From assembly GCA_038222225.1 (NCBI GenBank), contig JBBRHV010000005.1, forward strand, positions 1,824 to 65,823: 64,000 nt of DNA, given 5' to 3'. Below, in pieces: positions 4,148-55,384 of this stretch. Numbering within the stretch: position 1 is the stretch's first letter; each line of letters begins with the position of its first letter. The position numbers and the translations under genes are program-made. A model generated the notes under the pieces. It worked only from the letters and a program-made list of their open reading frames with translations. It searched no databases and was not told the origin of the DNA. Source of the DNA: Candidatus Omnitrophota bacterium (GTDB lineage Bacteria; Omnitrophota; Gorgyraeia; Zapsychrales; JANLHA01).

Positions 4148-4151
4148 AATT

Positions 4152-10301: not shown

Positions 10302-10325
10302 TTTCGGGATAAAGGAGCCGGTATT

Positions 10326-34271: not shown

Positions 34272-34323
34272 TTGCCATCAGGCCGATTCCAGGTATAATA
34301 TCAAATTGTTAAAAAATTCACGA
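34272..34323 (+). promoter_or_regulatory. rex promoter (TTGCCA-16-TATAAT) with Rex-operator-like site TTGTTAAAAAATTCACGA
   Basis: The -35 is at 34272-34277 and the -10 at 34294-34299. The palindromic site at 34306-34323 resembles the Rex consensus TTGTGAAnnnnTTCACAA. Confidence 0.6.
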
Positions 34324-34342: not shown

Positions 34343-34978
34343 ATGAAAAGATTTCCACAGCGCACTATTATACGGGCTTTTATTTATTTGAGGGCGCTTG
34401 ACGCCCTTATTGAAGACGGGCGGGTGTATGTATCTTCCGGCGAGCTTGCCACAATAACATCGCTCACGGATGTTCAGATCCGTAAAGATATTTCGGCTTT
34501 TGGAAAAGTCGGAAAGCCTCGCGTTGGTTATGATACGCGCCGTTTGAAACAGCTTTTGGAAGAGTTTGTGGTTCAGAATGTTGTTCATGTGGTTTTGTTT
34601 GGGGTTGGAAATTTGGGTTCCGCCATTTTGCGGTATCCCGGATTTCAGGAAGACAAAATTAAGATTGTGGCTGCTTTTGACAGTGACCCGGAAAAAGGCG
34701 ACAAAGCCATTAACGGAATTTCAATCTATCCGCTTGATAAAGCCAAGATGATCATTCAAAAGAAACATGTGGAAATCGGCGTGATCGCTGTTCCCAAACA
34801 AGCCAGTCAGCAGATTGCCGACCTTTTGGTGTCCTGCGGGGTAGAGTGCGTCGTGAATTTTTCACCGACGAATATCAGCGTGCCTAAAGGCACGTTTGTG
34901 AAGAATATTGACCTGGCGGTAGAGTTTTTAGCGCTTTTTTGTGATATGAGTTCAAAGAAGGCCGCTCAACATGCATGA
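34343..34978 (+). CDS. rex: Redox-sensing transcriptional repressor Rex
   Basis: N-terminal winged helix (ELATITSLTDVQIRKDISAFG) and a C-terminal Rossmann NADH-sensing domain (VVLFGVGNLGSAIL). Confidence 0.9.
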   Translation: MKRFPQRTIIRAFIYLRALDALIEDGRVYVSSGELATITSLTDVQIRKDISAFGKVGKPRVGYDTRRLKQLLEEFVVQNVVHVVLFGVGNLGSAILRYPGFQEDKIKIVAAFDSDPEKGDKAINGISIYPLDKAKMIIQKKHVEIGVIAVPKQASQQIADLLVSCGVECVVNFSPTNISVPKGTFVKNIDLAVEFLALFCDMSSKKAAQHA

Positions 34979-35324
34979 GCTTTCCATTGCCAGCGCACTG
35001 ATGGAGCAGATCATTTCGGAAGCGGAAAAGCATGAGCTTTCGCATATCGATGAGGTAGAGATTCATGCTGGCATTTTACGTCAGGTGATTCCCGAGGTCA
35101 TGCAGGAAGCGTTTCGGGAGGTGTCTGTGAAAACAGTTGCGGAAGGTGCGCTCCTGATCATTGTTGAAATTGAAGCGCAGGCCCGTTGCCGGAAATGCCA
35201 AACAGTGTTTGAGCCCACCTTAGATTCTTTTTTGTGTCCGCACTGTCAGATCGCGGATGTGGACATTCTTAAAGGCGACGAGATTATTCTGGCGGCGATC
35301 ATGTCTAACAGCGTAAATTTATAA
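34971..35324 (+). CDS. hypA: Hydrogenase nickel incorporation protein HypA
   Basis: MHELSIA N-terminus (Ni site) and two C-terminal CxxC motifs (CRKC...CPHC). Confidence 0.85.
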   Translation: MHELSIASALMEQIISEAEKHELSHIDEVEIHAGILRQVIPEVMQEAFREVSVKTVAEGALLIIVEIEAQARCRKCQTVFEPTLDSFLCPHCQIADVDILKGDEIILAAIMSNSVNL

Positions 35325-35333
35325 GGATGGATT

Positions 35334-36017
35334 ATGAAAATTAATATTGTGAAAAATGTTTTAAAGGCCAACGACCTGGTGGCGCAGGCGAACCGGAAAA
35401 CTTTTAAGGAGAAGGGTGTCTTGGCGGCGAATTTTATCAGTTCTCCCGGAAGCGGTAAAACCACGCTTCTGGAGAAAACCCTTACGGCTTTAGGGGAGCA
35501 GCAGCATAAGGCAACGGTGATCGTCGGTGATTTGCAGACAACCCGGGATGCGCAGCGGCTGGAGCCGTTTGCTTACCAGGTGGTGCAGATCAACACGGGG
35601 ACGAGCTGTCATTTATATGCCAATCAGGTTGCCGAGAGCCTGCCGAAGCTTGACCTGGAAGCGGTTGAATATGTCTTTATTGAGAATGTGGGCAACATGG
35701 TCTGTCCGGGTGAGTTTGACCTGGGTGAAAACATCAAGGTCATTCTTTTGAGCCTGCCGGAAGGGGACGATAAGGTGGCGAAATACCCGACGATTTTCCG
35801 TGCCGCGGATGTGGTGTTGCTGACAAAGACCGATTTAGAACCGGTGATGTCTTTTGATAAAAAGCAGGTTTATGACGATATTTCGCGTTTGAATGCCAAT
35901 ATTGAGATTATTGAGGTTTCTGCCAAAACAGGAGAAGGACTGTCTTGTTGGGTTGAGTGGCTTAAAAAGAGACGCAAGGAAGGAATTGGCGCACAAGTAA
36001 AGTTTATAACGGAATAG
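35334..36017 (+). CDS. hypB: Hydrogenase nickel incorporation GTPase HypB
   Basis: P-loop GSPGSGKTTLL, CH motif, and G-domain ENVGNMVCP. Confidence 0.9.
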   Translation: MKINIVKNVLKANDLVAQANRKTFKEKGVLAANFISSPGSGKTTLLEKTLTALGEQQHKATVIVGDLQTTRDAQRLEPFAYQVVQINTGTSCHLYANQVAESLPKLDLEAVEYVFIENVGNMVCPGEFDLGENIKVILLSLPEGDDKVAKYPTIFRAADVVLLTKTDLEPVMSFDKKQVYDDISRLNANIEIIEVSAKTGEGLSCWVEWLKKRRKEGIGAQVKFITE

Positions 36018-36043: not shown

Positions 36044-36101
36044 TTGCAACATAAGGAGAAATTGATATAATAATTTCTTATAATTGTTAAAATTTTCACG
36101 A
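36044..36101 (+). promoter_or_regulatory. hox operon promoter (TTGCAA-16-TATAAT) with second Rex-operator-like site TTGTTAAAATTTTCACGA
   Basis: The -35 is at 36044-36049 and the -10 at 36066-36071. The operator at 36084-36101 is nearly identical to the one upstream of rex. Confidence 0.6.
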
Positions 36102-36160
36102 TTTAAAGGTTGAACCGTAAAGCTCTGTTTAACATTTTGAAAAAAATAAGGGCCTCTCTT

Positions 36161-37975
36161 ATGACTAAAGAACTTCAAAGTACAATTCAAGTAATTTGTA
36201 AACAATGCGGGAATGACAAGGCGCGCATGATGGATGTTATGACCGCGGTTCAGAAAAAGCACGGTTGTATTTCCAGCCAGGCTATGGATTTGATCGCCAA
36301 GCAGCTGAAGGTCGACCGGATCGATGTGGAAAGCGCAGCCACGTTTTATTCATTTTTATCCACAAAGCCTAAGGGCAAAACGGTCATTCGGCTGTGTAAT
36401 GACATTGTTGATATGATGCAGGGCGCAAAGGAAGTTGCGGCTGCGCTTGAGCAGGAGTTGGGCATCAAATTCGGCGAACAAACTCCGGATGGAAACATTT
36501 CATTGGAATACACCCCTTGCATCGGAATGTGCGATCAGGCTCCGGCAGCTTTAATCAATGATGTGGTGATGACCTATTTATCAAGCGACAAGGCTCGGGA
36601 GATCGTGCGTGAGCTCAAGAAACACAATGATCCTAAAAAAATTGCTTGTCGTGTCGGTGATGGCAATAACGCCCATGAGCTTGTGCGCTCCATGGTTCAT
36701 AACGGTTTGCGCAAAAAAGGGGACGTGATTTTTGGTGAGCATGCGGCAAATGGCGGCCTGAAAAAAGCCCTGGGGATCAGCCCGGTTGAGGTCATTCGGG
36801 AAATCAAAACGGCCCGCTTAAGAGGCCGCGGCGGAGCAGGATTTCCGACGGGTATGAAATGGGAATTTACGCGTGCCGCGGAAGGTGAAAAGAAATATGT
36901 TCTCTGTAACGCAGATGAGGGAGAACCGGGAACATTTAAAGACCGGATCCTTTTGACCGAAAAGTATGACCTGATGTTTGAAGGTATGACCATCGGCGCT
37001 TACGCGATCGGGGCGCAAGAAGGCATCGTATATTTGCGGGGTGAATATGCGTATTTGAAAGATTTTTTAAACGCCATGCTTGCCAAAAGACGGGCGGACG
37101 GCTTATTGGGAAAAAATGTTTTAGGCAAAAGTGGTTTTGATTTTGATATCCGGATCCAGCTCGGAGCCGGGGCTTATATTTGCGGGGAAGAAACATCTTT
37201 GATTAGTTCGGCAGAGGGCCTAAGAGGGGATCCTAAGACCCGTCCGCCATTTCCTGCACAAAAGGGATATTTAGGTTGTCCGACAACAGTGAACAATGTG
37301 GAAACATTCTGCTGTGTGGCCCGTATATTAGAGAAGGGAGCCGCATGGTTCTCACAGGTGGGGACACCTGGAAGCCCTGGAACAAAATTATTGAGCGTTT
37401 CCGGCGATTGTGCTAGCCCGGGAATTTACGAGTTTCCCTTTGGGATTAAAGTGGAAGAGATGCTGCAGGCTGTCGGCGCTCAGGATGTACAGGCCGTGTT
37501 GATGGGCGGTCCATCAGGTCAGTTTATTGGGGCAGCGGATTTTAAGCGCGCGATTTGTTATGATGATTTGGCTACGGGCGGTTCAGTGGTAATCTTTAAT
37601 AAGACACGCGACCTGTTGGGGCTCGTCGATTATTACATGGACTTCTTTGTGGAAGAAAGCTGCGGATACTGTACGCCATGCCGTGTCGGCAATGTGTTGT
37701 TGAAAAATGGCGTTGATAAGATCCGCGGGGGCCGGGGGGATTTGGCCGATTTAGCGTATTTAGAGGATCTGGGGAAGTCGATCAAATTGACCAGCCGCTG
37801 CGGTTTAGGGCAGACATCGCCTAATCCGGTGGTAACGACCATTAAGAACTTCCGCGGTATCTATGAAAAAATTATAAAAGAACAGAAGGCGGGCATGATA
37901 TCAACGTTTGATATTCATGACGCGTTGAAGCAGGGCGAAGAAGCATCGGGACGAAAATCAGAGATCTTTAAATAA
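36161..37975 (+). CDS. hoxF: NAD(P)-linked bidirectional [NiFe] hydrogenase diaphorase subunit HoxF (NuoE-like plus NuoF-like fusion)
   Basis: N-terminal thioredoxin-like 2Fe-2S domain, the NuoF FMN/NADH module (GRGGAGFPTGMKW, GAYICGEETSLISSAEG), and a C-terminal 4Fe-4S CxxCxxC. The ATG at 36161 is preferred over the upstream TTG at 36110. Confidence 0.85.
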   Translation: MTKELQSTIQVICKQCGNDKARMMDVMTAVQKKHGCISSQAMDLIAKQLKVDRIDVESAATFYSFLSTKPKGKTVIRLCNDIVDMMQGAKEVAAALEQELGIKFGEQTPDGNISLEYTPCIGMCDQAPAALINDVVMTYLSSDKAREIVRELKKHNDPKKIACRVGDGNNAHELVRSMVHNGLRKKGDVIFGEHAANGGLKKALGISPVEVIREIKTARLRGRGGAGFPTGMKWEFTRAAEGEKKYVLCNADEGEPGTFKDRILLTEKYDLMFEGMTIGAYAIGAQEGIVYLRGEYAYLKDFLNAMLAKRRADGLLGKNVLGKSGFDFDIRIQLGAGAYICGEETSLISSAEGLRGDPKTRPPFPAQKGYLGCPTTVNNVETFCCVARILEKGAAWFSQVGTPGSPGTKLLSVSGDCASPGIYEFPFGIKVEEMLQAVGAQDVQAVLMGGPSGQFIGAADFKRAICYDDLATGGSVVIFNKTRDLLGLVDYYMDFFVEESCGYCTPCRVGNVLLKNGVDKIRGGRGDLADLAYLEDLGKSIKLTSRCGLGQTSPNPVVTTIKNFRGIYEKIIKEQKAGMISTFDIHDALKQGEEASGRKSEIFK

Positions 37976-37995: not shown

Positions 37996-38709
37996 ATGAG
38001 CGACAAAACATTGACATTTACAATTGACGGAGTTGAAGTAAAGGGCTGCCCCGGGCAGACCATCATGCAGGTGGCCGATGAGGCAGGGATTTATATTCCG
38101 CGCCTGTGTTATTGGGACGGGTTAAAGCCGCACGGAAGTTGCCGTTTGTGTACGGTGCTGGTCAATGGACGTCCGCAAGCGGCCTGCACACAGCCGATCG
38201 CGCAGGGGATGGCCGTTGAGCACAACACCGAAGAGCTCAAAGAGCGTCGCCGGGATATTGTGGACATGCTGTTTGTCGAAGGCAATCATTTTTGTATGGT
38301 TTGTGAGAAAAGTGGCAATTGCGAGCTTCAGGCCCAGGCCTATCGTTTGGGAATTGTAGCTCCGAAATATCCATTTCAGTTTCCGGTGTGCACGGTGGAT
38401 GCAACGCATCCGGATATTTTTATTGACCGCAATCGCTGCATTTTGTGCGGACGATGTGTTCAGGCCTCGATCGATTTAGACGGAAAACATGTTTTTGATT
38501 TTGTAGGCCGCGGCAAGAATAAAAGAATCGCGGTTAATGCCGAAGCCCGTTTGGCTGATACAGATCTGGACATTACGGACAAGGCAACTGAAGTGTGCCC
38601 GGTTGGGGCGATTATTAAGAAGCGTGTCGGGTATGCAATACCGGTGGGCCAGCGCCTTTATGACAAAAAGCCTATCGGCTCTGACATTGAAGCGAAACAA
38701 ACAAAGTAA
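37996..38709 (+). CDS. hoxU: Hydrogenase diaphorase iron-sulfur subunit HoxU (NuoG N-terminal-like)
   Basis: 2Fe-2S ferredoxin (CRLC) and 4Fe-4S motifs (CILCGRC, CEKSGNC). Confidence 0.85.
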   Translation: MSDKTLTFTIDGVEVKGCPGQTIMQVADEAGIYIPRLCYWDGLKPHGSCRLCTVLVNGRPQAACTQPIAQGMAVEHNTEELKERRRDIVDMLFVEGNHFCMVCEKSGNCELQAQAYRLGIVAPKYPFQFPVCTVDATHPDIFIDRNRCILCGRCVQASIDLDGKHVFDFVGRGKNKRIAVNAEARLADTDLDITDKATEVCPVGAIIKKRVGYAIPVGQRLYDKKPIGSDIEAKQTK

Positions 38710-38728: not shown

Positions 38729-39280
38729 ATGATCATGGAAAAACCCAAAGTTGCAACAGCGTCATTGGCCGGATGTTTTGGTTGTCATATGTCGATCTTG
38801 GACATTGATGAACGGATCTTACAGCTCATTGAGCTGGTGGATTTCGACAAGTCCCCCATCGACGATATCAAAGAATTTACCGGTCGTTGCCGGATCGGTT
38901 TGATCGAAGGTGGATGTTCAACCGAAGAGAATGTTCATGTGCTGCAAAAATTCCGTAAGAACTGCGATATTCTCATCTCAGTCGGTGAATGCGCGATTAC
39001 TGGCGGAGTTCCGGCCATGCGCAATGGCATTCCCCTCAAGGAATGCTTGGAGGAGGCGTATCTTAACGGACCGACGGTCTACAATCCCGCAAGAACGCTG
39101 CCGAAGGATCCCGAAATTCCTTTATGTTTGGATCAGGTGTATCCGTGTCATCATGTGGTTAAGATTGATTATCATCTTCCGGGCTGTCCGCCGTCTGCGG
39201 ATTTGATCTGGGAGGCATTGGTTGCGCTGCTGAGCGACAAACCGATAGAATTGCCGTATGAACTTATTAAGTACGATTAA
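38729..39280 (+). CDS. hoxY: [NiFe] hydrogenase small subunit HoxY
   Basis: ASLAGCFGCHMS proximal cluster motif. About 183 aa, typical of a group 3 small subunit. Confidence 0.8.
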   Translation: MIMEKPKVATASLAGCFGCHMSILDIDERILQLIELVDFDKSPIDDIKEFTGRCRIGLIEGGCSTEENVHVLQKFRKNCDILISVGECAITGGVPAMRNGIPLKECLEEAYLNGPTVYNPARTLPKDPEIPLCLDQVYPCHHVVKIDYHLPGCPPSADLIWEALVALLSDKPIELPYELIKYD

Positions 39281-39298: not shown

Positions 39299-40735
39299 GT
39301 GGATAGAAAAAATTTAAAACGAGTTGTTATTGAACCGGTGACCCGCGTTGAAGGTCACGGGAAGGTTTCAATTCTTCTTGATGAAAATGATATTGTTCAG
39401 CAGGCCAGACTTCATATTGTGGAATTCCGGGGGTTTGAGCGGTTTGTGAAAGGGCGTCCGTATTGGGAAGTTCCGGTCATGATCCAGCGTTTATGCGGGA
39501 TCTGTCCGGTCAGCCATCACCTGTGTGCGGCGAAGGCCATGGACCGCATTGTCGGCGGTGAGAATTTGACTCCGACGGCGGAAAAGATCCGGCGCTTGAT
39601 GCATTACGGCCAGACATTTCAATCGCATGCATTGCATTTTTTTCATTTGGTTTCACCTGATTTGCTGTTTGGATTTGAGGCTGATCCGGCGATCCGCAAT
39701 GTGATCGGCGTAGCCAAGAAGTTTCCGGAGTTGGCCGTTCAAGGCGTGATGATGCGCAAATACGGCCAGGAAATTATTAAAGCCACGGCAGGCAAAAAGA
39801 TCCACGGCACCGGGGCGGTTCCGGGTGGGGTCAATAAGAACTTGTCCATCTCCGAGCGCGATGCGCTTTTAAAGGATTTAGATCAAATGGTGATTTGGGC
39901 CAGAAGCGCTTTGAAGCTGGCTAAAGAATATACGGTAACAAATTTTGATAAAGTTAAGGATTTTGGTTCTTTTGATTCGAACCATTTAGGCCTTGTGCGT
40001 GAGGATGGATGTTTGGATTTATATAACGGAAATCTGCGTGCGGTGGATTCTCAAGGCAATACGATTTTTGATCAGGTCAATCCTTTGGATTATGCCGAGC
40101 ATTTGGCTGAAGAGGTCAAGGATTGGTCGTACATGAAGTTTCCGTTCATCAAAAAGATCGGTCCGGAAAACGGATGGTATCGAGTCGGACCGTTGGCGCG
40201 CATCAATATCTGTGATTTTATCGATACGCCGGAAGCGGAAAAAGAACGCCAGGAATTTAAAGCGTTGACCAACGGCAAACCGAACAATATCACGATGGCC
40301 TATCATTGGACGCGTATGATCGAAACACTGCATTCGATCGAAAAAATTAAAGAGCTTCTTCATGATCCGGATTTGCAGGGCACGGATCTGGTGGTTAAGG
40401 GCAAGCGCCGTGAAGAGACGGTCGCCATCCTCGAGGCTCCGAGAGGAACATTGTTCCATCATTATAAAGTGAACAAAGATGATCAGGTCGTGATGGCGAA
40501 TTTGATCGTTTCAACGACCAGCAATAATGAGCCGATGAACCGTGCGGTTCAGCGTGTGGCCAAAGATTCGCTGAACGGAAAAGTCATTACCGAAGGGCTT
40601 TTGAACCATATTGAAGTGGCTATCCGCGCTTATGATCCGTGCTTGTCATGCGCGACACATGCGCTTGGTCAGATGCCGCTGGTGGTCAGCCTGTTTGATC
40701 ATGAAGGCAATCTGCTTGATAAAAAGGTGAAGTAA
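39299..40735 (+). CDS. hoxH: [NiFe] hydrogenase large subunit HoxH
   Basis: N-terminal L1 motif RLCGICPVSHH and C-terminal L2 motif DPCLSCATHA. Confidence 0.9.
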   Translation: MDRKNLKRVVIEPVTRVEGHGKVSILLDENDIVQQARLHIVEFRGFERFVKGRPYWEVPVMIQRLCGICPVSHHLCAAKAMDRIVGGENLTPTAEKIRRLMHYGQTFQSHALHFFHLVSPDLLFGFEADPAIRNVIGVAKKFPELAVQGVMMRKYGQEIIKATAGKKIHGTGAVPGGVNKNLSISERDALLKDLDQMVIWARSALKLAKEYTVTNFDKVKDFGSFDSNHLGLVREDGCLDLYNGNLRAVDSQGNTIFDQVNPLDYAEHLAEEVKDWSYMKFPFIKKIGPENGWYRVGPLARINICDFIDTPEAEKERQEFKALTNGKPNNITMAYHWTRMIETLHSIEKIKELLHDPDLQGTDLVVKGKRREETVAILEAPRGTLFHHYKVNKDDQVVMANLIVSTTSNNEPMNRAVQRVAKDSLNGKVITEGLLNHIEVAIRAYDPCLSCATHALGQMPLVVSLFDHEGNLLDKKVK

Positions 40736-40737
40736 TC

Positions 40738-41205
40738 ATGCCGGTGGGACAATCATCCAGAGTGCTGGTCATCGGCTTTGGAAATCCCGGAAGGCTGGAT
40801 GACGGTTTAGGCCCGGCCTTGGCAGCAGAGCTCGAGGTTTTAAATCTTTCTGATGTCACGGTAGACGCTAATTATCAGCTGACCGTTGAGGATTCCGATG
40901 CAGTTAAAGATCATGATGTGGTGATCTTTGCCGATGCATCGGTGGATTGCCGGGAGCCATTTGAATTTTATCCGATCCTTCCTGAGGCTAAAACGCACTT
41001 TTCAAGTCATTTCTTGGCGCCGGAAGACGTGTTGGGGCTGGCGCAGGACGCTTTTTCCGCCCGCACACGGGGTTTTGTGCTGGCGATCCGCGGTTATGAA
41101 TTTAATGAATTTGGTGAAAGGCTTTCACAGCAGGCAGCGACTAATCTACAGGCAGCAAAGCAGTTCTTAGTGGACCGTATTCAGAAACGGGATTTTGACA
41201 GCTAA
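40738..41205 (+). CDS. hoxW: Hydrogenase maturation endopeptidase (HoxW/HycI family)
   Basis: 155 aa with the LVIGFGNPGRLDDGLG motif, immediately after the large subunit. Confidence 0.8.
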   Translation: MPVGQSSRVLVIGFGNPGRLDDGLGPALAAELEVLNLSDVTVDANYQLTVEDSDAVKDHDVVIFADASVDCREPFEFYPILPEAKTHFSSHFLAPEDVLGLAQDAFSARTRGFVLAIRGYEFNEFGERLSQQAATNLQAAKQFLVDRIQKRDFDS

Positions 41206-41233
41206 CGGAAGAACTTTTCACAGGAGAATAATC

Positions 41234-41608
41234 ATGCAAGACGGAAAACATGTGATTTTGGTTATTGATGATGAGCAGGATATTTTAAAGGTCGTTCAGG
41301 CGTTTCTTGAAAATCACGGCTATTCTGTTTTAACAGCCAGCTCCGCCGAAGAAGGTGTAAAGATTTATAAAAAGGGGCACCCGGACCTGATCATCGTCGA
41401 TTTAATGATGGAAGAGGTTGATGCCGGGGTGAATTTTGTTAAAGAGGTAAAATTATTGGGAAATACAGCGTCGGTTTATCTTTTGAGCGGCGCAGGTGAT
41501 AGCATGGCGGATAGTATTGATTATGAGGCAATGGGCTTTAGCGGTGTTTTTCAAAAACCCATTGACCGCCAGCGCCTGTTGAGTACGATTCATTCAAAAT
41601 TATCCTAA
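41234..41608 (+). CDS. Stand-alone CheY-like response regulator receiver domain
   Basis: DD acidic pocket, phospho-acceptor Asp in IIVDLMM, and conserved Lys in FQKP. About 124 aa with no output domain. The RBS is aggaga. Confidence 0.75.
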   Translation: MQDGKHVILVIDDEQDILKVVQAFLENHGYSVLTASSAEEGVKIYKKGHPDLIIVDLMMEEVDAGVNFVKEVKLLGNTASVYLLSGAGDSMADSIDYEAMGFSGVFQKPIDRQRLLSTIHSKLS

Positions 41609-41687: not shown

Positions 41688-43994
41688 ATGAAGGATCCTT
41701 TTGCCAATACAACGCGGTTGCGTATCCTGATCCGGGGGGCAGTTCAGGGCGTCGGATTCCGCCCGACGGTTTTTCGTTTGGCGAAAGAGCGCGGTCTTTT
41801 CGGTTGGGTGCGTAATACAACGCACGGTGTGATCATTGAAGCCGAAGGACCGGAAACAAAGTGCCGAGAATTTTTATCATCCCTTCATATCGAAAAACCT
41901 GTTCATGCATTCTTTCAAAGCCTCGAGGTGTCTTATCTGGATCCCGCAGGATATCAAGATTTCCAAATTCTGGAGAGTGAACCAGGGGAGCCGACAGCTC
42001 TGATTTTGCCTGACCTGGCGATGTGTCTGCAGTGCCGGGCCGATATTTCCGATCCCAAGAATAGTCGTTACCGTTATCCGTTCACTAATTGTACGCAATG
42101 CGGCCCGCGATACAGTATTATGGAAGCGCTTCCCTATGACCGCATCCACACAACAATGAAAAATTTTCAGATGTGTCCGCAGTGTGAAAACGAATATCAC
42201 GATCCGCATAACCGGCGCTTTCATGCCCAGCCTAACGCCTGTCCTGCTTGCGGACCTCAGGTTGAGCTTTGGGATTCGAAAGGAACTGTTCTTGAACGGA
42301 ACGATGCGGCGATAATGATGGCCGAGCATGAAATTTTGAAGGGGAAGATCGTTGCGCTAAAGGGGCTGGGAGGTTTCCAGCTAGCCGTCGATGCGCGCAA
42401 TGCAGAAGCGGTCAAGCGGCTGCGACAGCGCAAACACCGTTCGGCAAAGCCCTTTGCGGTGATGTTCCCGGATTTAAAATCTGTTGAGCGGGAGTGTCAT
42501 GTTTCTGATGAAGAGAAACGTCTTTTGACTTCGGGAGCCGCTCCGATTGTTTTATTGGAAAAACGCGCTGCCTGCGTTTGTAAAGAGGCGGCCCCAGGCA
42601 ATCCTTATCTCGGCGTGATGCTCCCCTATACGCCGCTGCATCATCTTGTGATGTCTGATCTGCAAATCCCGGTTGTTATGACCAGCGGAAATGTTTCGGA
42701 GGATCCGATGTGCATCGATGAACAGCAGGCGTTGGAGGACTTAAAAAATATTGCCGAGGCGTTTCTTGTTCACAACCGTCCGATCGCGCGCGCGGTGGAT
42801 GATTCCGTCGCTCGCATTGTTTTAAATCGGGAATTGATTTTGCGCCGGGCGCGAGGGTATGCCCCATTGCCGATCCTGATTCGGTCTGATGGAAATGACT
42901 TTGACGCGGTTGCGGTCGGCGCGCATTTAAAAAATGCAGTCGCCGTTAAGAAGGGAAAAAATATTTTTTTGAGTCAGCATATTGGAGATCTTGAGACGGA
43001 ACCTTCTTATGAGGCTTTTGTGCGCACGATCACCGATTTGAAGACCATGTATGCTGTTAAGCCACAAGCGGTTTTCTGTGACCGTCATCCGGATTATTTA
43101 TCGACTCAATATGCCCGCAAACAGCAGGCGGCGCCGATCGAGATTCAGCATCACGTGGCGCATGTTTTTTCCTGCATGGCGGAAAACGATCTTACCGCCC
43201 CCGTGTTGGGCGTGGCCTGGGACGGCACCGGATATGGCTTGGACAACACGGTGTGGGGCGGAGAGTTTTTTGAGATTCAAGAGAAAAGCATAACGCGGAC
43301 GGCGTCGTTGCGGCCTTTTCCGCTTCCCGGCGGGGAAAAAGCGGTTCTTGAGCCGCGCCGTTGCGCGCTCGGTCTGTTATACGAGTCATCACGCGGGCAT
43401 GTGGAGTATTACCAGGATATGGAATTTTTAAAATGTTTTTCTGAAACAGAGCTGAAGAATCTCATTCAAATTCTGCGCAATCAAAAGCAGTCTCCTTTTA
43501 CCTCAAGCGTGGGGCGCCTTTTTGATGCGGTGGCATCGTTTGTGGGCATCCGGCAGGTTTTGGAATTTGAAGGGCAGGCGGCGATGGAGGTTGAGTTTGC
43601 GGCAGAGAGAGCGCATTCTGAAAATTACTATCAATATGAGCTGACGGAGAAGGATCAACGGGACAGTCCGTATTCGGCGCAGCGGCAGGTGGATATTGCG
43701 TTGATCGATGCGGTTTCCTCTGATTTAAAAAATGGTGTGGCAACAGATGAGATCTGCGGCCGTTTTCATAACACATTGGTAGAGGCGCTGGTTTCGGTGG
43801 CAAGGCGCGCAAAGATTTCGAAAGTCGTTTTAAGCGGAGGCTGTTTTCAGAACCGCTACCTTTTGGAACGGGCGGTCCGGCGTTTAAAGGAGGATGGTTT
43901 TCATCCCTATTGGCATCAGCGCATTCCGCCCAACGACGGCGGGATCGCGCTTGGCCAGATCGCGGCGGGCTTGGGACAACGGCAATGGGTGTGA
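41688..43994 (+). CDS. hypF: Carbamoyltransferase HypF
   Basis: Acylphosphatase domain, two CxxC-x18-CxxC zinc fingers, and YrdC- and Kae1-like domains, over 768 aa. Confidence 0.95.
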   Translation: MKDPFANTTRLRILIRGAVQGVGFRPTVFRLAKERGLFGWVRNTTHGVIIEAEGPETKCREFLSSLHIEKPVHAFFQSLEVSYLDPAGYQDFQILESEPGEPTALILPDLAMCLQCRADISDPKNSRYRYPFTNCTQCGPRYSIMEALPYDRIHTTMKNFQMCPQCENEYHDPHNRRFHAQPNACPACGPQVELWDSKGTVLERNDAAIMMAEHEILKGKIVALKGLGGFQLAVDARNAEAVKRLRQRKHRSAKPFAVMFPDLKSVERECHVSDEEKRLLTSGAAPIVLLEKRAACVCKEAAPGNPYLGVMLPYTPLHHLVMSDLQIPVVMTSGNVSEDPMCIDEQQALEDLKNIAEAFLVHNRPIARAVDDSVARIVLNRELILRRARGYAPLPILIRSDGNDFDAVAVGAHLKNAVAVKKGKNIFLSQHIGDLETEPSYEAFVRTITDLKTMYAVKPQAVFCDRHPDYLSTQYARKQQAAPIEIQHHVAHVFSCMAENDLTAPVLGVAWDGTGYGLDNTVWGGEFFEIQEKSITRTASLRPFPLPGGEKAVLEPRRCALGLLYESSRGHVEYYQDMEFLKCFSETELKNLIQILRNQKQSPFTSSVGRLFDAVASFVGIRQVLEFEGQAAMEVEFAAERAHSENYYQYELTEKDQRDSPYSAQRQVDIALIDAVSSDLKNGVATDEICGRFHNTLVEALVSVARRAKISKVVLSGGCFQNRYLLERAVRRLKEDGFHPYWHQRIPPNDGGIALGQIAAGLGQRQWV

Positions 43995-44038
43995 TATAAT
44001 GCCGTTTTACAGGTGGCATTTTAAAAAGAGGGTGTGGA

Positions 44039-44284
44039 ATGTGTTTAGCGGTTCCCGGAAAAATTGTAGAGATCATCAATGACGATCCGCTGGAGCGCTC
44101 CGGAAAGGTCAGCTTCGGCGGCATTACCCGTGAAGTCAATTTGGCCTGTGTTCCTGAGGCCAACCCCGGCGAGTATGTTATTGTCCATGTTGGCATGGCC
44201 TTAAGCGTGGTTGATGAAGCGGAAGCACAGCAGATGTTAGAGTATATTCAGTCGGAAGACGACCTTCGCAAAGAGGGACTATGA
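44039..44284 (+). CDS. hypC: Hydrogenase maturation factor HypC
   Basis: [13 protein letters not shown]-terminus. Confidence 0.85.
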
Positions 44285-45369
44285 AATATATTGATGAATA
44301 TCGAGATGCGGGGCTTGTGAAGACTCTGGCCGAAAAGGTGAGGCGCGTTGTGACGCGGCCATGGACGATCATGGAAGTTTGCGGCGGGCAGACGCATGCC
44401 ATTATCAAGTTCGGCATTGATCAGATTTTGCCTAAAGAAATCACGCTGGTTCACGGCCCCGGATGCCCGGTGTGCGTGACATCCGTTGAGGCCATTGATC
44501 AGGCGGTGTTTATCGCAGCCCAGCCCAATGTGATTTTTTGTTCGTTCGGTGACATGTTGAGGGTTCCGGGAACAAAAAAAGATTTGTTGACCGTTAAAGC
44601 TGAGGGCGGGGATGTGCGCAGCGTGTATTCTCCGATGGACGCGGTCGCAATCGCTCAAAAAAATCCAGAGCGCCACGTTGTTTTTTTTGCTGTTGGATTT
44701 GAAACAACCGCTCCGGCCAACGCCAGCGCTATTCATTATGCGCAGGTGCATCAGGTGACAAATATGTCGTTTTTAGTTTCGCATGTTTTGGTTCCGCCGG
44801 TGATCGAGGCGGTTGTTTCATCAAAGAACAATCATATTCAGGGATTTCTGGCCGCTGGACATGTCTGCACGGTGATGGGCTATCATCAATACGAGCGTTT
44901 GGCGAGAGATTATCACATTCCGATCGTGGTGACCGGGTTTGAGCCGCTGGATATTCTGCAGGGGGTTCTGGCGTGCGTGACCCAGCTTGAGAAGGGGGAG
45001 ACGCGTGTTGAAAATGAATATGCCCGTGTTGTGCGCGCCGAAGGAAATCTGCTCGCGCAGGAGATCATGAAAAAAGTGTTTCAGCTTTCCGATCAGAAAT
45101 GGCGGGGGTTGGGAGTTATTCCCGATAGCGGTTTAAAATTGGCAGACAGTTATAACGCGTATGACGCACAAGTTGTGTTTGATGTCAGTCATATTCAGGC
45201 GGAGGAAAATCCGGAGTGTCAGGCAGGCCAGATTCTGCAGGGCTTGAAGAAGTCGGTGGAATGTCCGGCTTTTGGAACGCGTTGCACACCCGAGCATCCG
45301 TTGGGCGCGCCGATGGTGTCTTCCGAAGGCGCCTGCGCGGCGTATTATAAATACAGGAAAAGACACTAA
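44281..45369 (+). CDS. hypD: Hydrogenase maturation factor HypD
   Basis: CGGQTHA, GPGCPVC and CPVC Fe-S motifs. Confidence 0.95.
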
Positions 45370-45545
45370 GACACCGGGCAGTTTCTAGTGTTATAGTGTC
45401 TTAGCCCTGCGGAATTCGCAGAATTCCCGGGATTGGTCTCCCACGCAAAATAAAATTTTGAATGGGACATTATCTTGGCAAATCTGTGATTTGCTCAAGG
45501 CTAAGACAAGCTTTCAGTTTGTGTAGGATATCCTGGTGTCTTTTA
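45362..45545. repeat. Copies of the CTAAGACAC/GTGTCTTAG motif family in the hypD-hypE intergenic region
   Basis: agacactaagacacc lies at the hypD 3' end, and the inverted pair ctaagacac(21 nt)gtgtcttag follows. Further copies are ggctaagacaag and ggtgtctttt, the same motif as in the 27.7-27.96 kb array. Confidence 0.45.
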
Positions 45546-45558
45546 TAAGGAAACACAA

Positions 45559-46593
45559 ATGTTTAATTGTCCGATCCCGAAATCTGATCACGAAAAAATT
45601 TTACTTGGCCATGGTAGCGGCGGAGTCTTGATGCATCAGCTGATTGAAAAAGTTTTTAAAAAGACTTTTGAGAATCCGCTGCTTGCTCAAAATCATGACA
45701 GCACAGTTCTGGACTTTTCTGGAGCAAGGCTGGCCGTCACCACGGATTCCTATGTTATTCATCCGTTGTTTTTTCCCGGCGGGGATATTGGTTCCTTGGC
45801 GGTGCACGGGACAGTGAACGATCTGGCCATGTCCGGCGCCAAGCCGCTGTATCTGACGGTGGGATTTATTTTGGAAGAAGGGTTTGCGGTCGAAGATTTG
45901 CGGCGCATTGTTCAGTCCATGCAGAACGCAGCAGAGGAATCCAATATTCAGATCATTGCCGGCGACACCAAGGTCGTGGATCGCGGCAAAGGCGACGGGG
46001 TCTTTATTAACACAACCGGTATCGGAGTTGTTGAGCATGCCTTAAATATTTCTCCGCGCAGCGTTCAGCCTGGGGATGCGATCATTTTAAGTGGGGATAT
46101 CGGTCGGCACGGCATTGCGATCATGGCCCAACGGGAAGGTTTGCAGTTTGAATCCACCATTGAGAGTGATTCGGCATCTTTGTCAGCCATGATTCTTCCG
46201 CTTTTTCAAAAAAAGATTGATGTTCATTGTTTGCGTGATTTAACCCGTGGCGGGCTGGCCACCGCACTTAATGAGATCGCGCAAGATTCAGGTTTTCACA
46301 TCACGATTGAAGAGAACGAAATCCGCGTGGAGGAACAGGTCCGCGGCGCATGTGAGATCTTAGGCCTGGATCCGCTTTATGTCGCTAACGAAGGGCGCTG
46401 CATTGTTTTTGTTCCGGCTGAGCAGGCCGCAGAGACGCTTTCCACTTTAAGGGAGCATCAGCAAGGCCGGCAGGCGGTCGCGATCGGCTGTGTCTCTGAG
46501 ATACAAGACAAGCGGGTGACTTTAAAAAGTTCGCTAGGCACGGTCCGCATTATTGATATGCTTTCCGGCGAACAGCTTCCGCGGATTTGCTGA
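45559..46593 (+). CDS. hypE: Hydrogenase maturation factor HypE
   Basis: AIR-synthase-like fold with the C-terminal PRIC cysteine. Confidence 0.95.
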
Positions 46594-46691: not shown

Positions 46692-47114
46692 ATGCGTATT
46701 TCTGCCAAATGTGATTATGCCTGCCGGGCTTTGCTGGAGCTTTCTTTGCATTGGCCTAAAAAAGAGCCGTTGCAACTTCAGAATATTTCCGGTAAGCAAA
46801 ATATTCCGGTCAAATATCTGGTTCAGATCTTTATTCAGCTCAAAAGAGACGGGCTTGTCGTAAGCTCCAGAGGAAAAGACGGAGGATATCTTTTAGGAAA
46901 AACGCCGGACGCGATAAGCTTGGGTGACGTTATGCGATGTATGGGAGGAGCGCTTTTATCGAGATCCGATGCTTTAAGGAAAGAACCGTCTGTTTTTAGT
47001 GGGGTATGGGATCAGCTTGAAGGAGCAATGACCACAGTGGTTGATCATGTCACATTTGAAGATATTTGTGCAAAAAGCCAAGAGAAAGATAAAATTTTAA
47101 TTTTTCAGATATAA
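46692..47114 (+). CDS. Rrf2-family transcriptional regulator (IscR/CymR-like)
   Basis: MRISAKCDYACRALLELS... wHTH with the Rrf2 signature, preceded by a TTGACA-16-TATACT promoter. Confidence 0.8.
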   Translation: MRISAKCDYACRALLELSLHWPKKEPLQLQNISGKQNIPVKYLVQIFIQLKRDGLVVSSRGKDGGYLLGKTPDAISLGDVMRCMGGALLSRSDALRKEPSVFSGVWDQLEGAMTTVVDHVTFEDICAKSQEKDKILIFQI

Positions 47115-47417: not shown

Positions 47418-48149
47418 ATGAAAAAGGAAAACTTTTTAGAAATTAACAGAGATTTTTCACAGCTGAGCCCAGAAGAAGTTCTTTCATGGGCGTTATCGAA
47501 ATTTGACAAGGAGCGTTTGGCGTTTTCCTCAAGCATGGGGGCGGAAGATCAGGTAATCACGCACATGCTTAAGACCATGGGTTTGAGCATATCAATTTTT
47601 ACAATTGATACAGGGCGCTTATATCCAGAAACGTATGATCTTATTAAGAGAACAGAACAAAAATATGGTTTTCGTTACGATATTTTAGAACCAGAACAAA
47701 CAAAAGTTAATGGCATGGTTTCTGAACATGGGGAAAATTTATTTTATGAAAGTTTAGAATTAAGAAAAATGTGCTGTCATGTAAGAAAACTGGAGCCTCT
47801 TCGCAAAAAAATGTTTACGCTTGATGCCTGGATTTGCGGATTAAGGAAAGAACAATCCGTCACAAGGGCTGAGATTGGAAAAATTGAATGGGACGAAACA
47901 TTTGGAGTTGTTAAAATCAATCCGCTTACGGATTGGACAGAAGATCAGGTTTGGTCTTATATTCGAAAGAACAATATCCCGTATCACGCACTTCATGACA
48001 GCGGATATCCCAGTATCGGATGTGCGCCGTGTACCCGGGCCATTCAGCCTGGTGAAGATGTCAGGGCAGGACGCTGGTGGTGGGAAAATCCCCAGAACCG
48101 TGAATGCGGTTTGCATAGGGGGCCTAAGAAAAAAGGAAATTTGCAATGA
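47418..48149 (+). CDS. cysH: Adenylylsulfate (APS) reductase, thioredoxin-dependent, [4Fe-4S]-type CysH
   Basis: PAPS-reductase fold with the catalytic ECGLH motif, plus the Cys pair CC (KMCCHV) and CxxC (GCAPCT) that are diagnostic of APS-specific Fe-S enzymes. Confidence 0.85.
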
Positions 48150-49030
48150 TGGACACATTAGCGCGCCTTGAAGCAAAAAGTGTTTATATTCTCCGTGAGG
48201 CCTATCGCGAGTTTAAACAGCTGGCCATGTTATGGTCAGTTGGGAAAGACAGCACCGTCCTGTTATGGTTGACGCGTAAAGCTTTTTTTGGGCATGTTCC
48301 TATGCCATTGGTCCATATTGATACGCATTTTAAAATTCCAGAAATGATTGCTTACCGGGACCGCTTGGCCGCCGAATGGCATCTGAATTTGATTTACGGA
48401 GAGAACGCCGAGGCCTTGGCGAATAAGGAGACGTTTCCCGACGGCAACGTAGATCGTTTGACCTGCTGCCGGAAATTGAAAAGCGAAGCCCTTAAAAAAA
48501 CAATTTCCGGAGAATGGCCGCGTTATCGTTTTGATCATAGTCTTGGAAAATATGTGCAGGACGCCAATACGGAAGGGTATACTGGCGTTATTGTCGGCGC
48601 ACGCGCAGATGAAGAAGGGAGCCGGTCTAAGGAGCGGTATTTTTCTCCACGCGACCGGCAGAGCGACTGGGATGTGGCGGGTCAGCCGCCGGAACTTTGG
48701 AATCAATTTAAGACTGATTTTGCGCCGGGCACGCATGTTCGGATTCATCCTCTTTTAGATTGGACAGAGCTGAATATTTGGGAATATATTCAGAGAGAAA
48801 ACATCCCGATCATTGATCTTTATTTTGACAAAGGAAAAGGCTTGCGGTATCGTTCTTTAGGCTGTGCCCCTTGCACGGGGACGGTTGTTTCGTCAGCCAA
48901 AAATGTCGCTGAGATTATTGAGGAACTTAAGAACGGAAAATTTGTAAATATTGCTGAACGTAGCGGCCGCGCTCAAGATAAAGAAGACGGCGGTGGATTA
49001 GAAACATTGCGTCGAGAGGGGTATATGTAA
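48146..49030 (+). CDS. cysD: Sulfate adenylyltransferase subunit 2
   Basis: PP-loop SVGKDS and the CysD family architecture. It overlaps the cysH stop by 4 nt. Confidence 0.9.
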
Positions 49031-49032
49031 TC

Positions 49033-50865: not shown

Positions 50866-50887
50866 GGAAAGAGAGGGACTTCGTCAC

Positions 50888-55381: not shown

Positions 55382-55384
55382 AGA

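What the first reader, a model, noticed from the sequence alone, without database searches (positions are those of the whole stretch)
41234..41608. Orphan CheY-like receiver embedded between the hydrogenase protease gene and hypF
A single-domain response regulator lies inside the hox-hyp gene string and overlaps the hoxW stop. It has an intact acidic pocket, a phospho-acceptor Asp and the conserved Lys. No histidine kinase or DNA-binding output is encoded nearby. This suggests phosphorylation-dependent protein-protein control of hydrogenase maturation or activity. That would differ from the HoxA/HoxJ-type transcriptional control known for other NAD-linked hydrogenases.
Basis: inference. Interest (0 to 1): 0.6.

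Follow-up and report, generated by a model that had tools for sequence, protein, structure and literature searches.

The report
Hydrogenase-operon single-domain response regulator
A small phosphorylation-switch protein is encoded as the sixth gene of an NAD-linked hydrogenase operon in this window and in most related operons sampled from several bacterial phyla, which points to an undescribed signalling input to this enzyme.

Summary
The ORF at 41234-41608 (+) is a real 124-aa single-domain response regulator (Pfam Response_reg E=1.9e-21; confident AF2 receiver fold). Its catalytic residues are D12, D13, D56, S85 and K108-P109, and they are kept in 123-126 of 126 distinct relatives.

One detail of the finding is wrong. 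The gene does not overlap hoxW: the hoxW stop is at 41203-41205, an AGGAG lies at 41222-41226, and the ATG is at 41234.

The linkage is to the hox structural operon, not to hyp. In 75 of 80 genomes found with the receiver as query, it directly follows hoxW, and the hyp genes sit anywhere or nowhere nearby. In a scan seeded with HoxW instead, 47 of 62 informative loci carry it. Fifteen do not, including near-identical hoxFUYHW-hypFCDE strings, so it is an optional accessory.

No histidine kinase lies in the 64-kb window. In 13 relatives, kinases of at least five different types flank the operon. A Rex repressor gene and two Rex-box-like sites in the window indicate that transcription is controlled separately.

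Best reading (inferred, about 0.4): a phospho-switch that acts directly on the Hox enzyme, probably the HoxFU module, in the operon position that HoxI holds in Cupriavidus. I found no prior description. Interest is moderate to high.

The parts
41234..41608 (+). Single-domain response regulator gene (124 aa). Codons: D12/D13 at 41267-41272, phospho-acceptor D56 at 41399-41401, S85 at 41486-41488, K108 at 41555-41557.
   Evidence: Pfam PF00072 E=1.9e-21. Residue mapping to CheY. Residues invariant in relatives. AF2 pLDDT 86.5 with Foldseek TM about 0.8 to receiver structures.
41222..41226 (+). Shine-Dalgarno-like AGGAG, 7 nt before the ATG. The 28-nt hoxW-receiver spacer has no terminator-like hairpin.
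   Evidence: Sequence read directly. Terminator scan.
40738..41205 (+). hoxW-type hydrogenase maturation endopeptidase gene. Its stop is at 41203-41205.
   Evidence: NCBIfam TIGR00072 at 58.5 bits against a 47.45 cutoff. It sits directly upstream of the receiver in 75 of 80 genome loci.
39299..40735 (+). hoxH, [NiFe] hydrogenase large subunit
   Evidence: Pfam NiFeSe_Hases. Precomputed PF27537 HoxH on orthologues.
38735..39280 (+). hoxY, hydrogenase small subunit (181 aa from the ATG at 38735)
   Evidence: Orthologues of 181 aa carry PF01058 Oxidored_q6. tblastn colinearity.
37996..38709 (+). hoxU, diaphorase Fe-S subunit
   Evidence: The best NCBIfam match is HoxU (PRK07569, E=1.8e-60, 204 bits), below that model's equivalog cutoff of 333.
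36110..37975 (+). hoxF, a NuoE-like plus NuoF-like fused diaphorase subunit. The true start is probably ATG 36161, because orthologues are about 604 aa.
   Evidence: Pfam 2Fe-2S_thioredx, Complex1_51K and NADH_4Fe-4S. Orthologue lengths.
36084..36101 (+). Rex-box-like palindrome TTGTTAAAATTTTCACGA, between a promoter-like site (36044-36071) and hoxF
   Evidence: Pattern search, 2 mismatches to the consensus. Promoter scan.
34306..34323 (+). Second Rex-box-like palindrome TTGTTAAAAAATTCACGA, just upstream of rex
34343..34978 (+). rex, redox-sensing (NADH/NAD+) transcriptional repressor gene. It is the first gene of the rex-hypAB-hox-RR-hypFCDE string.
   Evidence: NCBIfam Rex at 198 bits against a 126 cutoff. 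Pfam Put_DNA-bind_N and CoA_binding.
34971..36017 (+). hypA (34971-35324) and hypB (35334-36017)
   Evidence: Pfam HypA and cobW/HypB
41688..46593 (+). hypF (41688-43994), hypC (44039-44284), hypD (44281-45369) and hypE (45559-46593)
   Evidence: Pfam HypF domains. tblastn colinearity with hyp genes of relatives.

Best explanation
The ORF encodes a phosphorylation-competent single-domain response regulator. It is a dedicated but optional accessory gene of a hoxFUYHW operon for a soluble NAD-linked [NiFe] hydrogenase, and it is co-transcribed as the sixth gene.

Proposed mechanism:
1. A redox- or metabolite-sensing histidine kinase encoded elsewhere in this genome phosphorylates D56. A small phosphodonor such as acetyl phosphate could possibly do the same.
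2. The phosphorylated form binds a product of its own operon, most probably the HoxF/HoxU diaphorase module.
3. Binding tunes enzyme activity or direction after translation. Transcription of the operon is set separately by Rex.

Functionally this would resemble HoxI, the loosely bound extra subunit encoded after hoxW in Cupriavidus necator.

Shown here: the identity of the protein, its intact catalytic residues, its operon position and its conserved linkage. Inferred: the phosphorylation source, the binding partner and the effect on the enzyme.
For: - Identity and competence: Pfam E=1.9e-21, all five catalytic residues plus the cis-Pro kept in 123-126 of 126 distinct relatives, and a receiver fold.
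- Operon membership: 28-nt spacer with an RBS and no terminator-like hairpin.
- Receiver-seeded synteny: at least 535 species-level genomes encode a relative. Of the best 80, 75 have the receiver directly after hoxW and 65 have the full colinear hoxF-U-Y-H-W-RR string. hyp genes lie before, after, on the opposite strand, or are absent.
- HoxW-seeded synteny, which is unbiased with respect to the receiver: 47 of 62 informative metagenomic loci carry it.
- The receiver travels with the operon while kinases do not. Kinases directly flank the operon in only 13 loci and fall into at least five unrelated architectures. This points to a constant partner encoded in the operon itself.
- Conservation: the receiver is 58.5% identical to the window copy (median). 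That is above HoxW (53%) and close to HoxF (63%).
- Co-evolution hint: the receiver distance matrix mirrors the operon's. The correlation is strongest with HoxF (r=0.68; partial r=0.41) and then HoxW (0.61; 0.30), and partial r is 0.11 or less for HoxU, HoxY and HoxH.
- No DNA-binding response regulator, Hpt protein or other output gene is conserved in the neighbourhood.
- Precedent for an extra subunit encoded in this position: operon hoxFUYHWI and enzyme HoxHYFUI2, with HoxI dissociating from HoxFU (PMC3189943).
Against: - No binding or activity data exist, and no complex could be modelled with these tools.
- The mirror-tree signal is confounded by evolutionary rate. HoxF, HoxW and the receiver are the faster-evolving proteins, so they have the largest dynamic range.
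- About 24% of closely related operons lack the receiver, including hoxFUYHW-hypFCDE strings with HoxH 80% identical to the window (L090, L095, L098). The enzyme therefore works without it.
- In one locus the slot after hoxW holds an OmpR-type DNA-binding regulator with a PAS kinase (L131). Transcriptional two-component control of this operon type therefore also occurs.
- The kinase of this genome is unknown.
- The predicted alpha4 region, which is the usual output face, is modelled with low confidence (pLDDT about 70).
Confidence: 0.4

Rival explanations
1. Phosphorelay intermediate or phosphate sink. The receiver accepts phosphoryl groups from a sensor kinase and either passes them on (Spo0F-like) or drains them (CheY2- or DivK-like). 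This would shape the output of a DNA-binding regulator encoded elsewhere that controls hox transcription. Being made from the hox transcript, it would give feedback.
For: - Single-domain regulators commonly work this way (established knowledge of Spo0F and sink CheYs). Spo0F and DivK are among the structural neighbours.
- Some loci place classical two-component genes in the same neighbourhood: an OmpR-type regulator with a PAS kinase right after hoxW in L131, an extra receiver plus kinase upstream of hoxF in L049, and a NarL-type regulator next to the paralogue in L019.
Against: - No Hpt protein or DNA-binding regulator is conserved near the operon.
- The flanking kinases are of at least five non-orthologous types. 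The receiver nonetheless stays 54-66% identical across phylum labels and moves with the operon. That fits a constant operon-encoded partner better than host-specific relay partners.
Confidence: 0.28
2. Maturation gate. The receiver controls HoxW-dependent C-terminal processing of HoxH, or Hyp-dependent cofactor insertion, so that active enzyme is made only under the right conditions.
For: - It always lies directly after hoxW (75 of 80 loci), and in this window directly before hypF.
- The second-highest partial correlation is with HoxW (0.30).
Against: - hyp genes are not linked to the receiver in most loci.
- L071 has hoxH followed by the receiver with no hoxW between them.
- Fifteen of 62 closely related operons mature their enzyme without any such gene. 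In L090, L095 and L098 hoxW abuts hypF directly.
Confidence: 0.12
3. Kinase-independent metabolic sensor. The receiver autophosphorylates from acetyl phosphate, so fermentative flux through acetyl-CoA reports directly to the NADH-disposing hydrogenase. This is a variant of the best explanation with a different input.
For: - No kinase lies in 64 kb, and kinases are absent within 10 kb in 59 of 84 loci.
- The operon spreads across phylum labels without a fixed kinase.
- The T+1 residue is small (Ser, Gly or Ala) in 125 of 126 relatives. From general knowledge of receivers, this is compatible with access for small phosphodonors.
Against: - Kinases do flank the operon in 13 loci. One unusual kinase-flavoprotein fusion flanks the receiver in two different hydrogenase contexts, which argues for kinase input at least there.
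- Orphan regulators usually have unlinked kinases.
- Nothing specific to acetyl phosphate was tested.
Confidence: 0.12

Closest known systems
Stand-alone receiver proteins (CheY, Spo0F, DivK, CpdR type single-domain response regulators)
   Same: - About 120 aa with the receiver domain only.
- All catalytic residues are present.
- (beta-alpha)5 fold with TM about 0.8 to PhoP-N, MicA, CheY4, Spo0F and DivK.
   Different: - About 20-34% identity to the top 50 solved receiver structures.
- It reaches no NCBIfam model's cutoff.
- No che, spo or div genes are nearby.
- The CheY switch residue Tyr106 is replaced by Val (V105, followed by F106).
- It carries family-specific invariant motifs: DLMMEE[IV]D[AS]G after the phospho-Asp, and S-x-x-G-D...D-Y...G across the alpha4 region.
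- Its fixed context is a hydrogenase operon.
HoxI of the Cupriavidus necator soluble hydrogenase (operon hoxFUYHWI, enzyme HoxHYFUI2)
   Same: - A small extra gene placed directly after hoxW in a hoxFUYHW operon for a NAD-linked [NiFe] hydrogenase.
- HoxI is a loosely bound accessory subunit on the HoxFU side and is not needed for the catalytic core (PMC3189943). The receiver is likewise optional.
   Different: - Pfam finds only a receiver domain, with no cyclic-nucleotide-binding-like domain. A homology test against a HoxI sequence itself was not run.
- The input would be phosphorylation rather than nucleotide binding.
- Physical association of the receiver with the enzyme is untested.
HoxJ/HoxA and HupT/HupR hydrogen-responsive two-component control of [NiFe] hydrogenase genes
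   Same: Two-component signalling is dedicated to a hydrogenase. The HupR receiver domain appears among the structural neighbours (2jk1).
   Different: - HoxA and HupR are NtrC-type regulators with AAA+ and DNA-binding domains. They work with a regulatory hydrogenase, HoxBC (PMC2974642).
- Here there is no output domain and no sensor hydrogenase.
- There is no fixed kinase either.
Rex control of NADH-dependent hydrogenases
   Same: A Rex gene and two Rex-box-like sites sit at the two promoter-like sites of this cluster. This gives NADH/NAD+-responsive transcription of the same operon that carries the receiver.
   Different: - Rex is a separate DNA-binding system and is not linked to the receiver in most relatives.
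- Rex genes occur near about 9 of 84 loci.
- Rex boxes occur upstream of hoxF in 6 of 63 loci.

Membership tests
Response regulator receiver domain (CheY-like superfamily, PF00072) | Significant match to the family profile over its full length | tested here: met
   76.8 bits against a 30.2 cutoff, E=1.9e-21. Residues 8-119 cover profile positions 1-110 of 111.
Response regulator receiver domain (CheY-like superfamily, PF00072) | Catalytic quintet: two acidic residues after beta1, phospho-acceptor Asp at the end of beta3, Thr/Ser at the end of beta4, and Lys at the end of beta5 | tested here: met
   D12, D13, D56, S85 and K108 (followed by P109) align with CheY D12, D13, D57, T87 and K109. They are conserved in 123-126 of 126 relatives.
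Response regulator receiver domain (CheY-like superfamily, PF00072) | (beta-alpha)5 fold | tested here: met
   AF2 pLDDT 86.5 and pTM 0.84. Foldseek TM 0.79-0.84 to many receiver structures. Caveat: alpha4 (residues 86-103) is modelled mostly as coil with pLDDT about 70.
Response regulator receiver domain (CheY-like superfamily, PF00072) | Actual phosphorylation on the conserved Asp | not testable with these tools
   This needs a phosphotransfer or acetyl-phosphate assay.
Single-domain (stand-alone) response regulators | No output domain | tested here: met
   The protein is 124 aa and the receiver covers residues 8-119. Most of the 120 best homologues are 124 aa and nearly all are 124-140 aa.
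Single-domain (stand-alone) response regulators | A cognate histidine kinase | tested here: inconclusive
   None lies in the 64-kb window. In relatives, kinases directly flank the operon in 13 loci. Five types were seen:
- soluble GAF kinase
- membrane GAF kinase
- membrane kinase without a GAF domain
- sCache-HAMP kinase
- kinase fused to a flavoprotein disulfide reductase and a rhodanese domain
The rest of this genome is not available.
Chemotaxis CheY proper | che or flagellar gene context and the Tyr106 switch residue used for FliM binding | tested here: not met
   No che genes are in the window or the related loci. V105 replaces Tyr106. It reaches no NCBIfam model's cutoff.
HoxA/HupR-type hydrogenase transcription activators | Receiver plus sigma54-interaction AAA+ domain plus HTH | tested here: not met
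   Only a receiver domain is present.
HoxI-type accessory subunit of soluble NAD-reducing hydrogenase | Encoded directly after hoxW in a hoxFUYHW operon | tested here: met
   Window gene order. Seen in 75 of 80 genome loci and 47 of 62 HoxW-seeded loci. The hoxFUYHWI operon order is from PMC3189943.
HoxI-type accessory subunit of soluble NAD-reducing hydrogenase | Sequence homology to HoxI | tested here: not met
   Pfam finds only Response_reg. No HoxI sequence was available for a direct comparison, so this rests on domain content.
HoxI-type accessory subunit of soluble NAD-reducing hydrogenase | Physical association with the HoxFU module | not testable with these tools
   There is only an indirect hint: the distance-matrix correlation is highest with HoxF.

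The most novel reading that the evidence does not exclude
The receiver is a phosphorylation-switched regulatory subunit that docks on the HoxFU diaphorase of a soluble NAD-linked [NiFe] hydrogenase and gates electron flow between NAD(H) and H2. That would be direct two-component control of the activity of a central redox enzyme rather than of its genes. It would be carried as a portable module with the operon across phyla and plugged into whichever redox-sensing kinase the host provides, for example the kinase fused to a flavoprotein disulfide reductase and rhodanese.
Probability: 0.33. Interest if true: 0.75.

Novelty: new variant of a known kind. Interest (0 to 1): 0.6.

Why it matters
NAD-linked bidirectional hydrogenases set the H2/NADH balance of many anaerobes and are used for cofactor recycling. 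Their known controls are transcriptional (HoxA/HoxJ, LexA/AbrB, Rex), plus the HoxI subunit in one lineage.

This work shows a conserved, phosphorylatable sixth gene in most sampled operons of this type. At least 535 species-level genomes encode a relative of the receiver. This points to an unstudied signalling input to the enzyme.

It also gives concrete objects to test:
- the receiver itself;
- its invariant surface motifs;
- candidate kinases that lie next to it in relatives;
- natural operon variants with and without it.

If the receiver acts on the enzyme directly, it would be a rare case of two-component control of a redox enzyme's activity. It could also serve as a handle for switching heterologously expressed hydrogenases.

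Tried and rejected
- Pairwise BLASTP of the receiver against E. coli CheY gave no useful alignment. I replaced it with a MAFFT profile-guided alignment.
- NCBIfam has no model specific for this family. The best matches are generic receivers far below their cutoffs, including the DVU0259/DivK family at 55 bits against 160.
- PDB searches by sequence and by fold returned only generic receivers at about 20-34% identity and gave no functional lead.
- Seven literature searches turned up no description of a receiver in hox operons. They found only HoxA/HoxJ, the cyanobacterial regulators and HoxI (passages read).
- Looking up the window's own protein to name the organism returned only a 4.7-kb read-assembly contig with no taxon. 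The closest named relatives are Sedimentisphaerales, Phycisphaerae and Omnitrophota MAGs.
- The idea that Rex is the receiver's constant partner was rejected. Rex genes lie near only about 9 of 84 loci, and Rex boxes lie upstream of hoxF in 6 of 63.
- The idea that the gene is tied to hyp maturation genes was rejected, because hyp positions vary.
- The TTG-41195 start, which would overlap hoxW, was rejected because the homologues share the shorter N-terminus and most are 124 aa long.
- The first metagenome scan failed with a server error and was repeated successfully.
- Complex modelling of the receiver with Hox subunits is not possible with the structure tool provided.
Full report
**1. What is at the coordinates**

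The ORF 41234-41608 (+) encodes 124 aa. It starts at an ATG that lies 7 nt after an AGGAG at 41222-41226. Pfam assigns residues 8-119 to the response regulator receiver domain over the whole profile (76.8 bits, E=1.9e-21). No second domain is present.

The upstream ORF (40738-41205) is a hydrogenase maturation endopeptidase (TIGR00072). Its TAA stop is at 41203-41205, so the two genes are 28 nt apart and do not overlap. Only an in-frame TTG at 41195, listed mechanically, would overlap. Most of the closest homologues are 124 aa, and all 31 aligned relatives have the same M-[QKR]-[DE] N-terminus, so the ATG is the start.

Aligned to E. coli CheY, the catalytic residues correspond as follows:

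| Receiver | CheY |
|---|---|
| D12 | D12 |
| D13 | D13 |
| D56 | D57 |
| S85 | T87 |
| K108-P109 | K109-P110 |

The CheY switch residue Tyr106 corresponds to V105, which is followed by F106.

An AlphaFold2 model built from 32 family members is confident (pLDDT 86.5, pTM 0.84) and has the receiver fold. The exception is the alpha4 region (residues 86-103), which is mostly coil at pLDDT about 70. Foldseek finds only ordinary receivers such as PhoP-N, MicA, RssB-N, CheY4, Spo0F and DivK, at TM about 0.8 and about 20-34% identity. The PDB sequence search agrees. The protein reaches no NCBIfam model's cutoff.

**2. The surroundings in the window**

The gene sits in a single same-strand string:

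| Gene | Coordinates | Note |
|---|---|---|
| rex | 34343-34978 | redox-sensing repressor |
| hypA | 34971-35324 | |
| hypB | 35334-36017 | |
| hoxF | 36110-37975 | NuoE-NuoF fusion; true start probably ATG 36161 |
| hoxU | 37996-38709 | |
| hoxY | 38735-39280 | |
| hoxH | 39299-40735 | |
| hoxW | 40738-41205 | |
| receiver | 41234-41608 | |
| hypF | 41688-43994 | |
| hypC | 44039-44284 | |
| hypD | 44281-45369 | |
| hypE | 45559-46593 | |
| Rrf2 regulator | 46692-47114 | |

- No terminator-like hairpin separates hoxW, the receiver and hypF.
- Two nearly identical Rex-box-like palindromes (TTGTTAAAANNTTCACGA, 2 mismatches to the consensus) lie at 34306-34323 and 36084-36101. Each is just downstream of one of the best promoter-like sites and just upstream of rex and hoxF respectively. 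Transcription of the cluster is therefore probably NADH/NAD+-responsive through Rex.
- No histidine kinase is encoded anywhere in the 64 kb. Pfam scans of 36 of the larger ORFs, the receiver included, show housekeeping, sulfate-assimilation and siroheme genes.
- An HMM of kinase cores built from 16 kinases of related loci hits no window ORF of 90 aa or more at E<=10. The same HMM recovers 30 kinases in the related loci.

**3. Is the linkage to the hydrogenase conserved?**

Yes.

*Homologues.* A protein search finds more than 2000 homologues. The best 120 are mostly 124 aa long and 59-82% identical. The few that carry a source name are labelled Sedimentisphaerales, Phycisphaerae, Planctomycetes or Omnitrophica. 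Three context look-ups showed hoxF-U-Y-H-W-RR even where no hyp genes are adjacent.

*Receiver-seeded scan.* A scan of one genome per species found at least 535 genomes that encode a relative. I compared the window's Hox and Hyp proteins to the best 80 loci.
- Seventy-five have the receiver directly after hoxW on the same strand.
- Sixty-five show the complete colinear hoxF-U-Y-H-W-RR string. Most of the rest are cut by contig ends.
- The record titles carry labels of roughly nine phyla: Planctomycetota (including a Kuenenia label), Omnitrophota, Bacteroidota/Ignavibacteria, Spirochaetes, Thermodesulfobacteriota/Deltaproteobacteria, Myxococcota, Krumholzibacteriota, Verrucomicrobiota/Victivallales, Methylomirabilis and Chromatiales. 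MAG labels may be imprecise.
- The hyp genes are upstream, downstream, on the opposite strand, or absent within 10 kb. The conserved partner is therefore the structural operon, not the maturation genes.
- The five exceptions are two contigs that are too short, one locus with hoxH followed by the receiver and no hoxW (L071), and two paralogous copies (L019, L025).
- In L025 the copy faces a divergent Rex-headed cluster for a group-4-type [NiFe] hydrogenase.
- L019 has a similar Rex gene and ORF layout, but I did not annotate it.
- No informative locus lacks a hydrogenase link.

*HoxW-seeded scan.* The scan above was seeded with the receiver, so I ran the reverse test on metagenome contigs with HoxW as query. 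Of 62 loci with at least 550 nt after hoxW, 47 (76%) carry the family receiver there, and nine shorter contigs show its beginning. Fifteen lack it.
- Three of these (L090, L095, L098) are hoxFUYHW-hypFCDE strings whose HoxH is 80% identical to the window's. This is the window's arrangement minus the receiver.
- In other receiver-less loci the slot holds an OmpR-type regulator with a PAS kinase (L131), other receiver proteins including a receiver fused to a formate/nitrite transporter (L110), or a CBS-domain protein (L086).
- The receiver is thus frequent but optional. That argues against a structural or maturation role and for a regulatory add-on.

**4. Conservation pattern**

- Across 126 distinct relatives, D13, D56, S/T85, K108 and P109 are kept in all, and D12 in 123. 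This is not a pseudo-receiver.
- Family-specific invariant motifs follow the phospho-Asp (DLMMEE[IV]D[AS]G) and span the alpha4-beta5 region (S-x-x-G-D...D-Y...G-x-x-G-V-F-Q-K-P). That region is the usual output face of receivers.
- Median identity to the window copy is 58.5% for the receiver. The other proteins are HoxW 53%, HoxF 63%, HoxU 71%, HoxH 77% and HoxY 78%.
- The receiver's pairwise distance matrix over 65 operons correlates with every subunit (r=0.42-0.68), so it is inherited with the operon.
- The strongest correlations are with HoxF (0.68; partial 0.41) and HoxW (0.61; partial 0.30). Partial r is 0.11 or less for HoxU, HoxY and HoxH.
- This is only a hint, because the three faster-evolving proteins have the largest dynamic range.

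**5. Candidate kinases**

Clustering all flanking ORFs showed that nothing outside hox is conserved in more than about a quarter of loci. Kinases do recur, however: 25 of 84 loci have one within 10 kb, and 13 have one directly flanking the operon. They are of at least five unrelated types.

| Type | Size | Loci |
|---|---|---|
| Soluble GAF-HisKA-HATPase kinase; directly after the receiver on the same strand in L026, L031 and L075; two invariant Cys in the GAF domain | about 430 aa | L026, L031, L075 (orthologues further off in L048, L037) |
| Membrane GAF kinase | about 640 aa | L062, L037, L041, L015 |
| Membrane kinase upstream of hoxF | about 480-550 aa | L022, L056, L049 |
| sCache-HAMP kinase | about 615-650 aa | L011, L048 |
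| Fusion of HisKA-HATPase to a pyridine-nucleotide-disulfide oxidoreductase and a rhodanese domain | about 807 aa | L045, L025 |

The fusion kinase lies next to a hox-linked receiver in L045 and next to the group-4-linked paralogue in L025. The two copies are 56% identical over their full length. It is the best single candidate for a cognate redox-sensing kinase family. Whether this genome has one cannot be checked from the window.

**6. Mechanism**

*Shown:* a phosphorylation-competent stand-alone receiver, co-oriented and almost certainly co-transcribed with hoxFUYHW, that moves with that operon across phylum labels and is optional.

*Inferred:* the kinases vary while the receiver and the operon stay together, and no DNA-binding or Hpt partner is conserved nearby. 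The simplest constant partner is therefore a product of the operon itself. My best reading is that the phosphorylated receiver binds the enzyme, most likely the HoxFU diaphorase side, and tunes activity, while Rex sets transcription.

This parallels HoxI of Cupriavidus necator. HoxI is encoded directly after hoxW (hoxFUYHWI) and is a loosely bound extra subunit of the HoxHYFUI2 enzyme that dissociates from HoxFU (PMC3189943). The parallel is positional and functional. It is not homology.

I put this reading at about 0.4. The rivals are:
- a relay or sink role in a transcriptional two-component pathway (about 0.28), supported by classical two-component genes occupying the same slot in a few loci;
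- a HoxW or Hyp maturation gate (about 0.12), weakened by the receiver-less operons and the variable hyp positions;
- acetyl-phosphate input instead of a kinase (about 0.12), which is a variant of the main model.

**7. Comparison with what is known, and novelty**

- The protein is a member of the receiver superfamily and of the stand-alone class.
- It is not a chemotaxis CheY, because it has no che context and no Tyr106.
- It is not a HoxA/HupR-type activator, because it has no AAA+ or HTH domain.
- It is not homologous to HoxI on domain content.
- Seven full-text searches found nothing on a receiver in hox operons.
- The library misses many subscription papers, so 'undescribed' is provisional.
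- I rate it a new variant of a known kind: two-component signalling attached to a hydrogenase, but through a portable single-domain receiver built into the structural operon.

**8. Verdict**

The functional link to the hydrogenase is strongly supported by comparative genomics. The specific mechanism is open and directly testable. Interest 0.6.

Noticed in passing
window 34306-34323 and 36084-36101; rex at 34343-34978: Two nearly identical Rex-box-like palindromes (TTGTTAAAANNTTCACGA) sit just downstream of the best promoter-like sites, in front of rex-hypAB and in front of hoxF. The cluster is probably repressed by Rex in response to NADH/NAD+. Only 6 of 63 related loci have such a box within 350 nt of hoxF.
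   Followed up: partly
L025:7281-9701 (-) and L045:5589-8012 (-): An unusual protein of about 807 aa fuses a histidine-kinase core (HisKA and HATPase_c) to a pyridine-nucleotide-disulfide oxidoreductase (CoA-disulfide-reductase-like) and a rhodanese domain. The two copies are 56% identical over their full length. Both lie next to a receiver of this family, in two different hydrogenase contexts. It is a candidate redox-sensing cognate kinase.
   Followed up: partly
L025:943-7037 (-) with the receiver at 10001-10369; similar ORF layout in L019: A paralogue of the receiver (60% identical), from the same MAG as hox-linked L007, faces a Rex-headed cluster for a group-4-type membrane [NiFe] hydrogenase. 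That cluster carries Complex1_49kDa/NiFeSe, 30-kDa, 20-kDa, NuoH-like, ferredoxin and FAD/NAD-binding subunits. L019 has a Rex gene and a similar ORF layout but was not annotated.
   Followed up: partly
L110:933-2903 (+): In a locus without the family receiver, hoxW is followed by a 225-aa receiver protein and then a 427-aa fusion of a receiver domain to a formate/nitrite transporter (FNT) channel.
   Followed up: no
L090, L095, L098 (metagenome loci): These are hoxFUYHW-hypFCDE strings with HoxH 80% identical to the window but with hoxW directly abutting hypF and no receiver. They are natural minus-receiver counterparts of the window's arrangement.
   Followed up: partly
L026:10464-11774, L031:10464-11774, L075:10464-11753, L048:1820-3121 (-), L037:10765-12135: Soluble GAF-HisKA-HATPase kinases of about 430 aa. 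In L026, L031 and L075 they lie 91 nt after the receiver on the same strand. They carry two invariant cysteines in the GAF domain (motifs CDR and TCPL), which may be a redox or ligand site.
   Followed up: partly
window 41489-41542 (receiver residues 86-103): The alpha4 region, normally a helix on the output face of receivers, is predicted mostly as coil with lower confidence. Yet it carries invariant G88, D89, D96, Y97 and G101. It is either an atypical family-specific surface or a result of the shallow alignment.
   Followed up: no
window 36110-36161: The mechanical hoxF ORF starts at TTG 36110 (621 aa) and would begin only 9 nt after the Rex-box-like site. Orthologues are about 604 aa, so ATG 36161 is the likelier start. 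HoxF here is a fusion of NuoE-like and NuoF-like parts, as in four-subunit soluble hydrogenases.
   Followed up: partly
window 1443-6744 and 47418-59424: The window begins with gyrB, dnaN and dnaA on the minus strand, so it lies in a replication-origin region. After the Rrf2 regulator comes a sulfate-assimilation and siroheme block: PAPS-reductase-family proteins, a CysN/C-like GTPase-kinase, hemA/C/D/B-type genes, sulfite reductase and a GltD-like flavoprotein.
   Followed up: no
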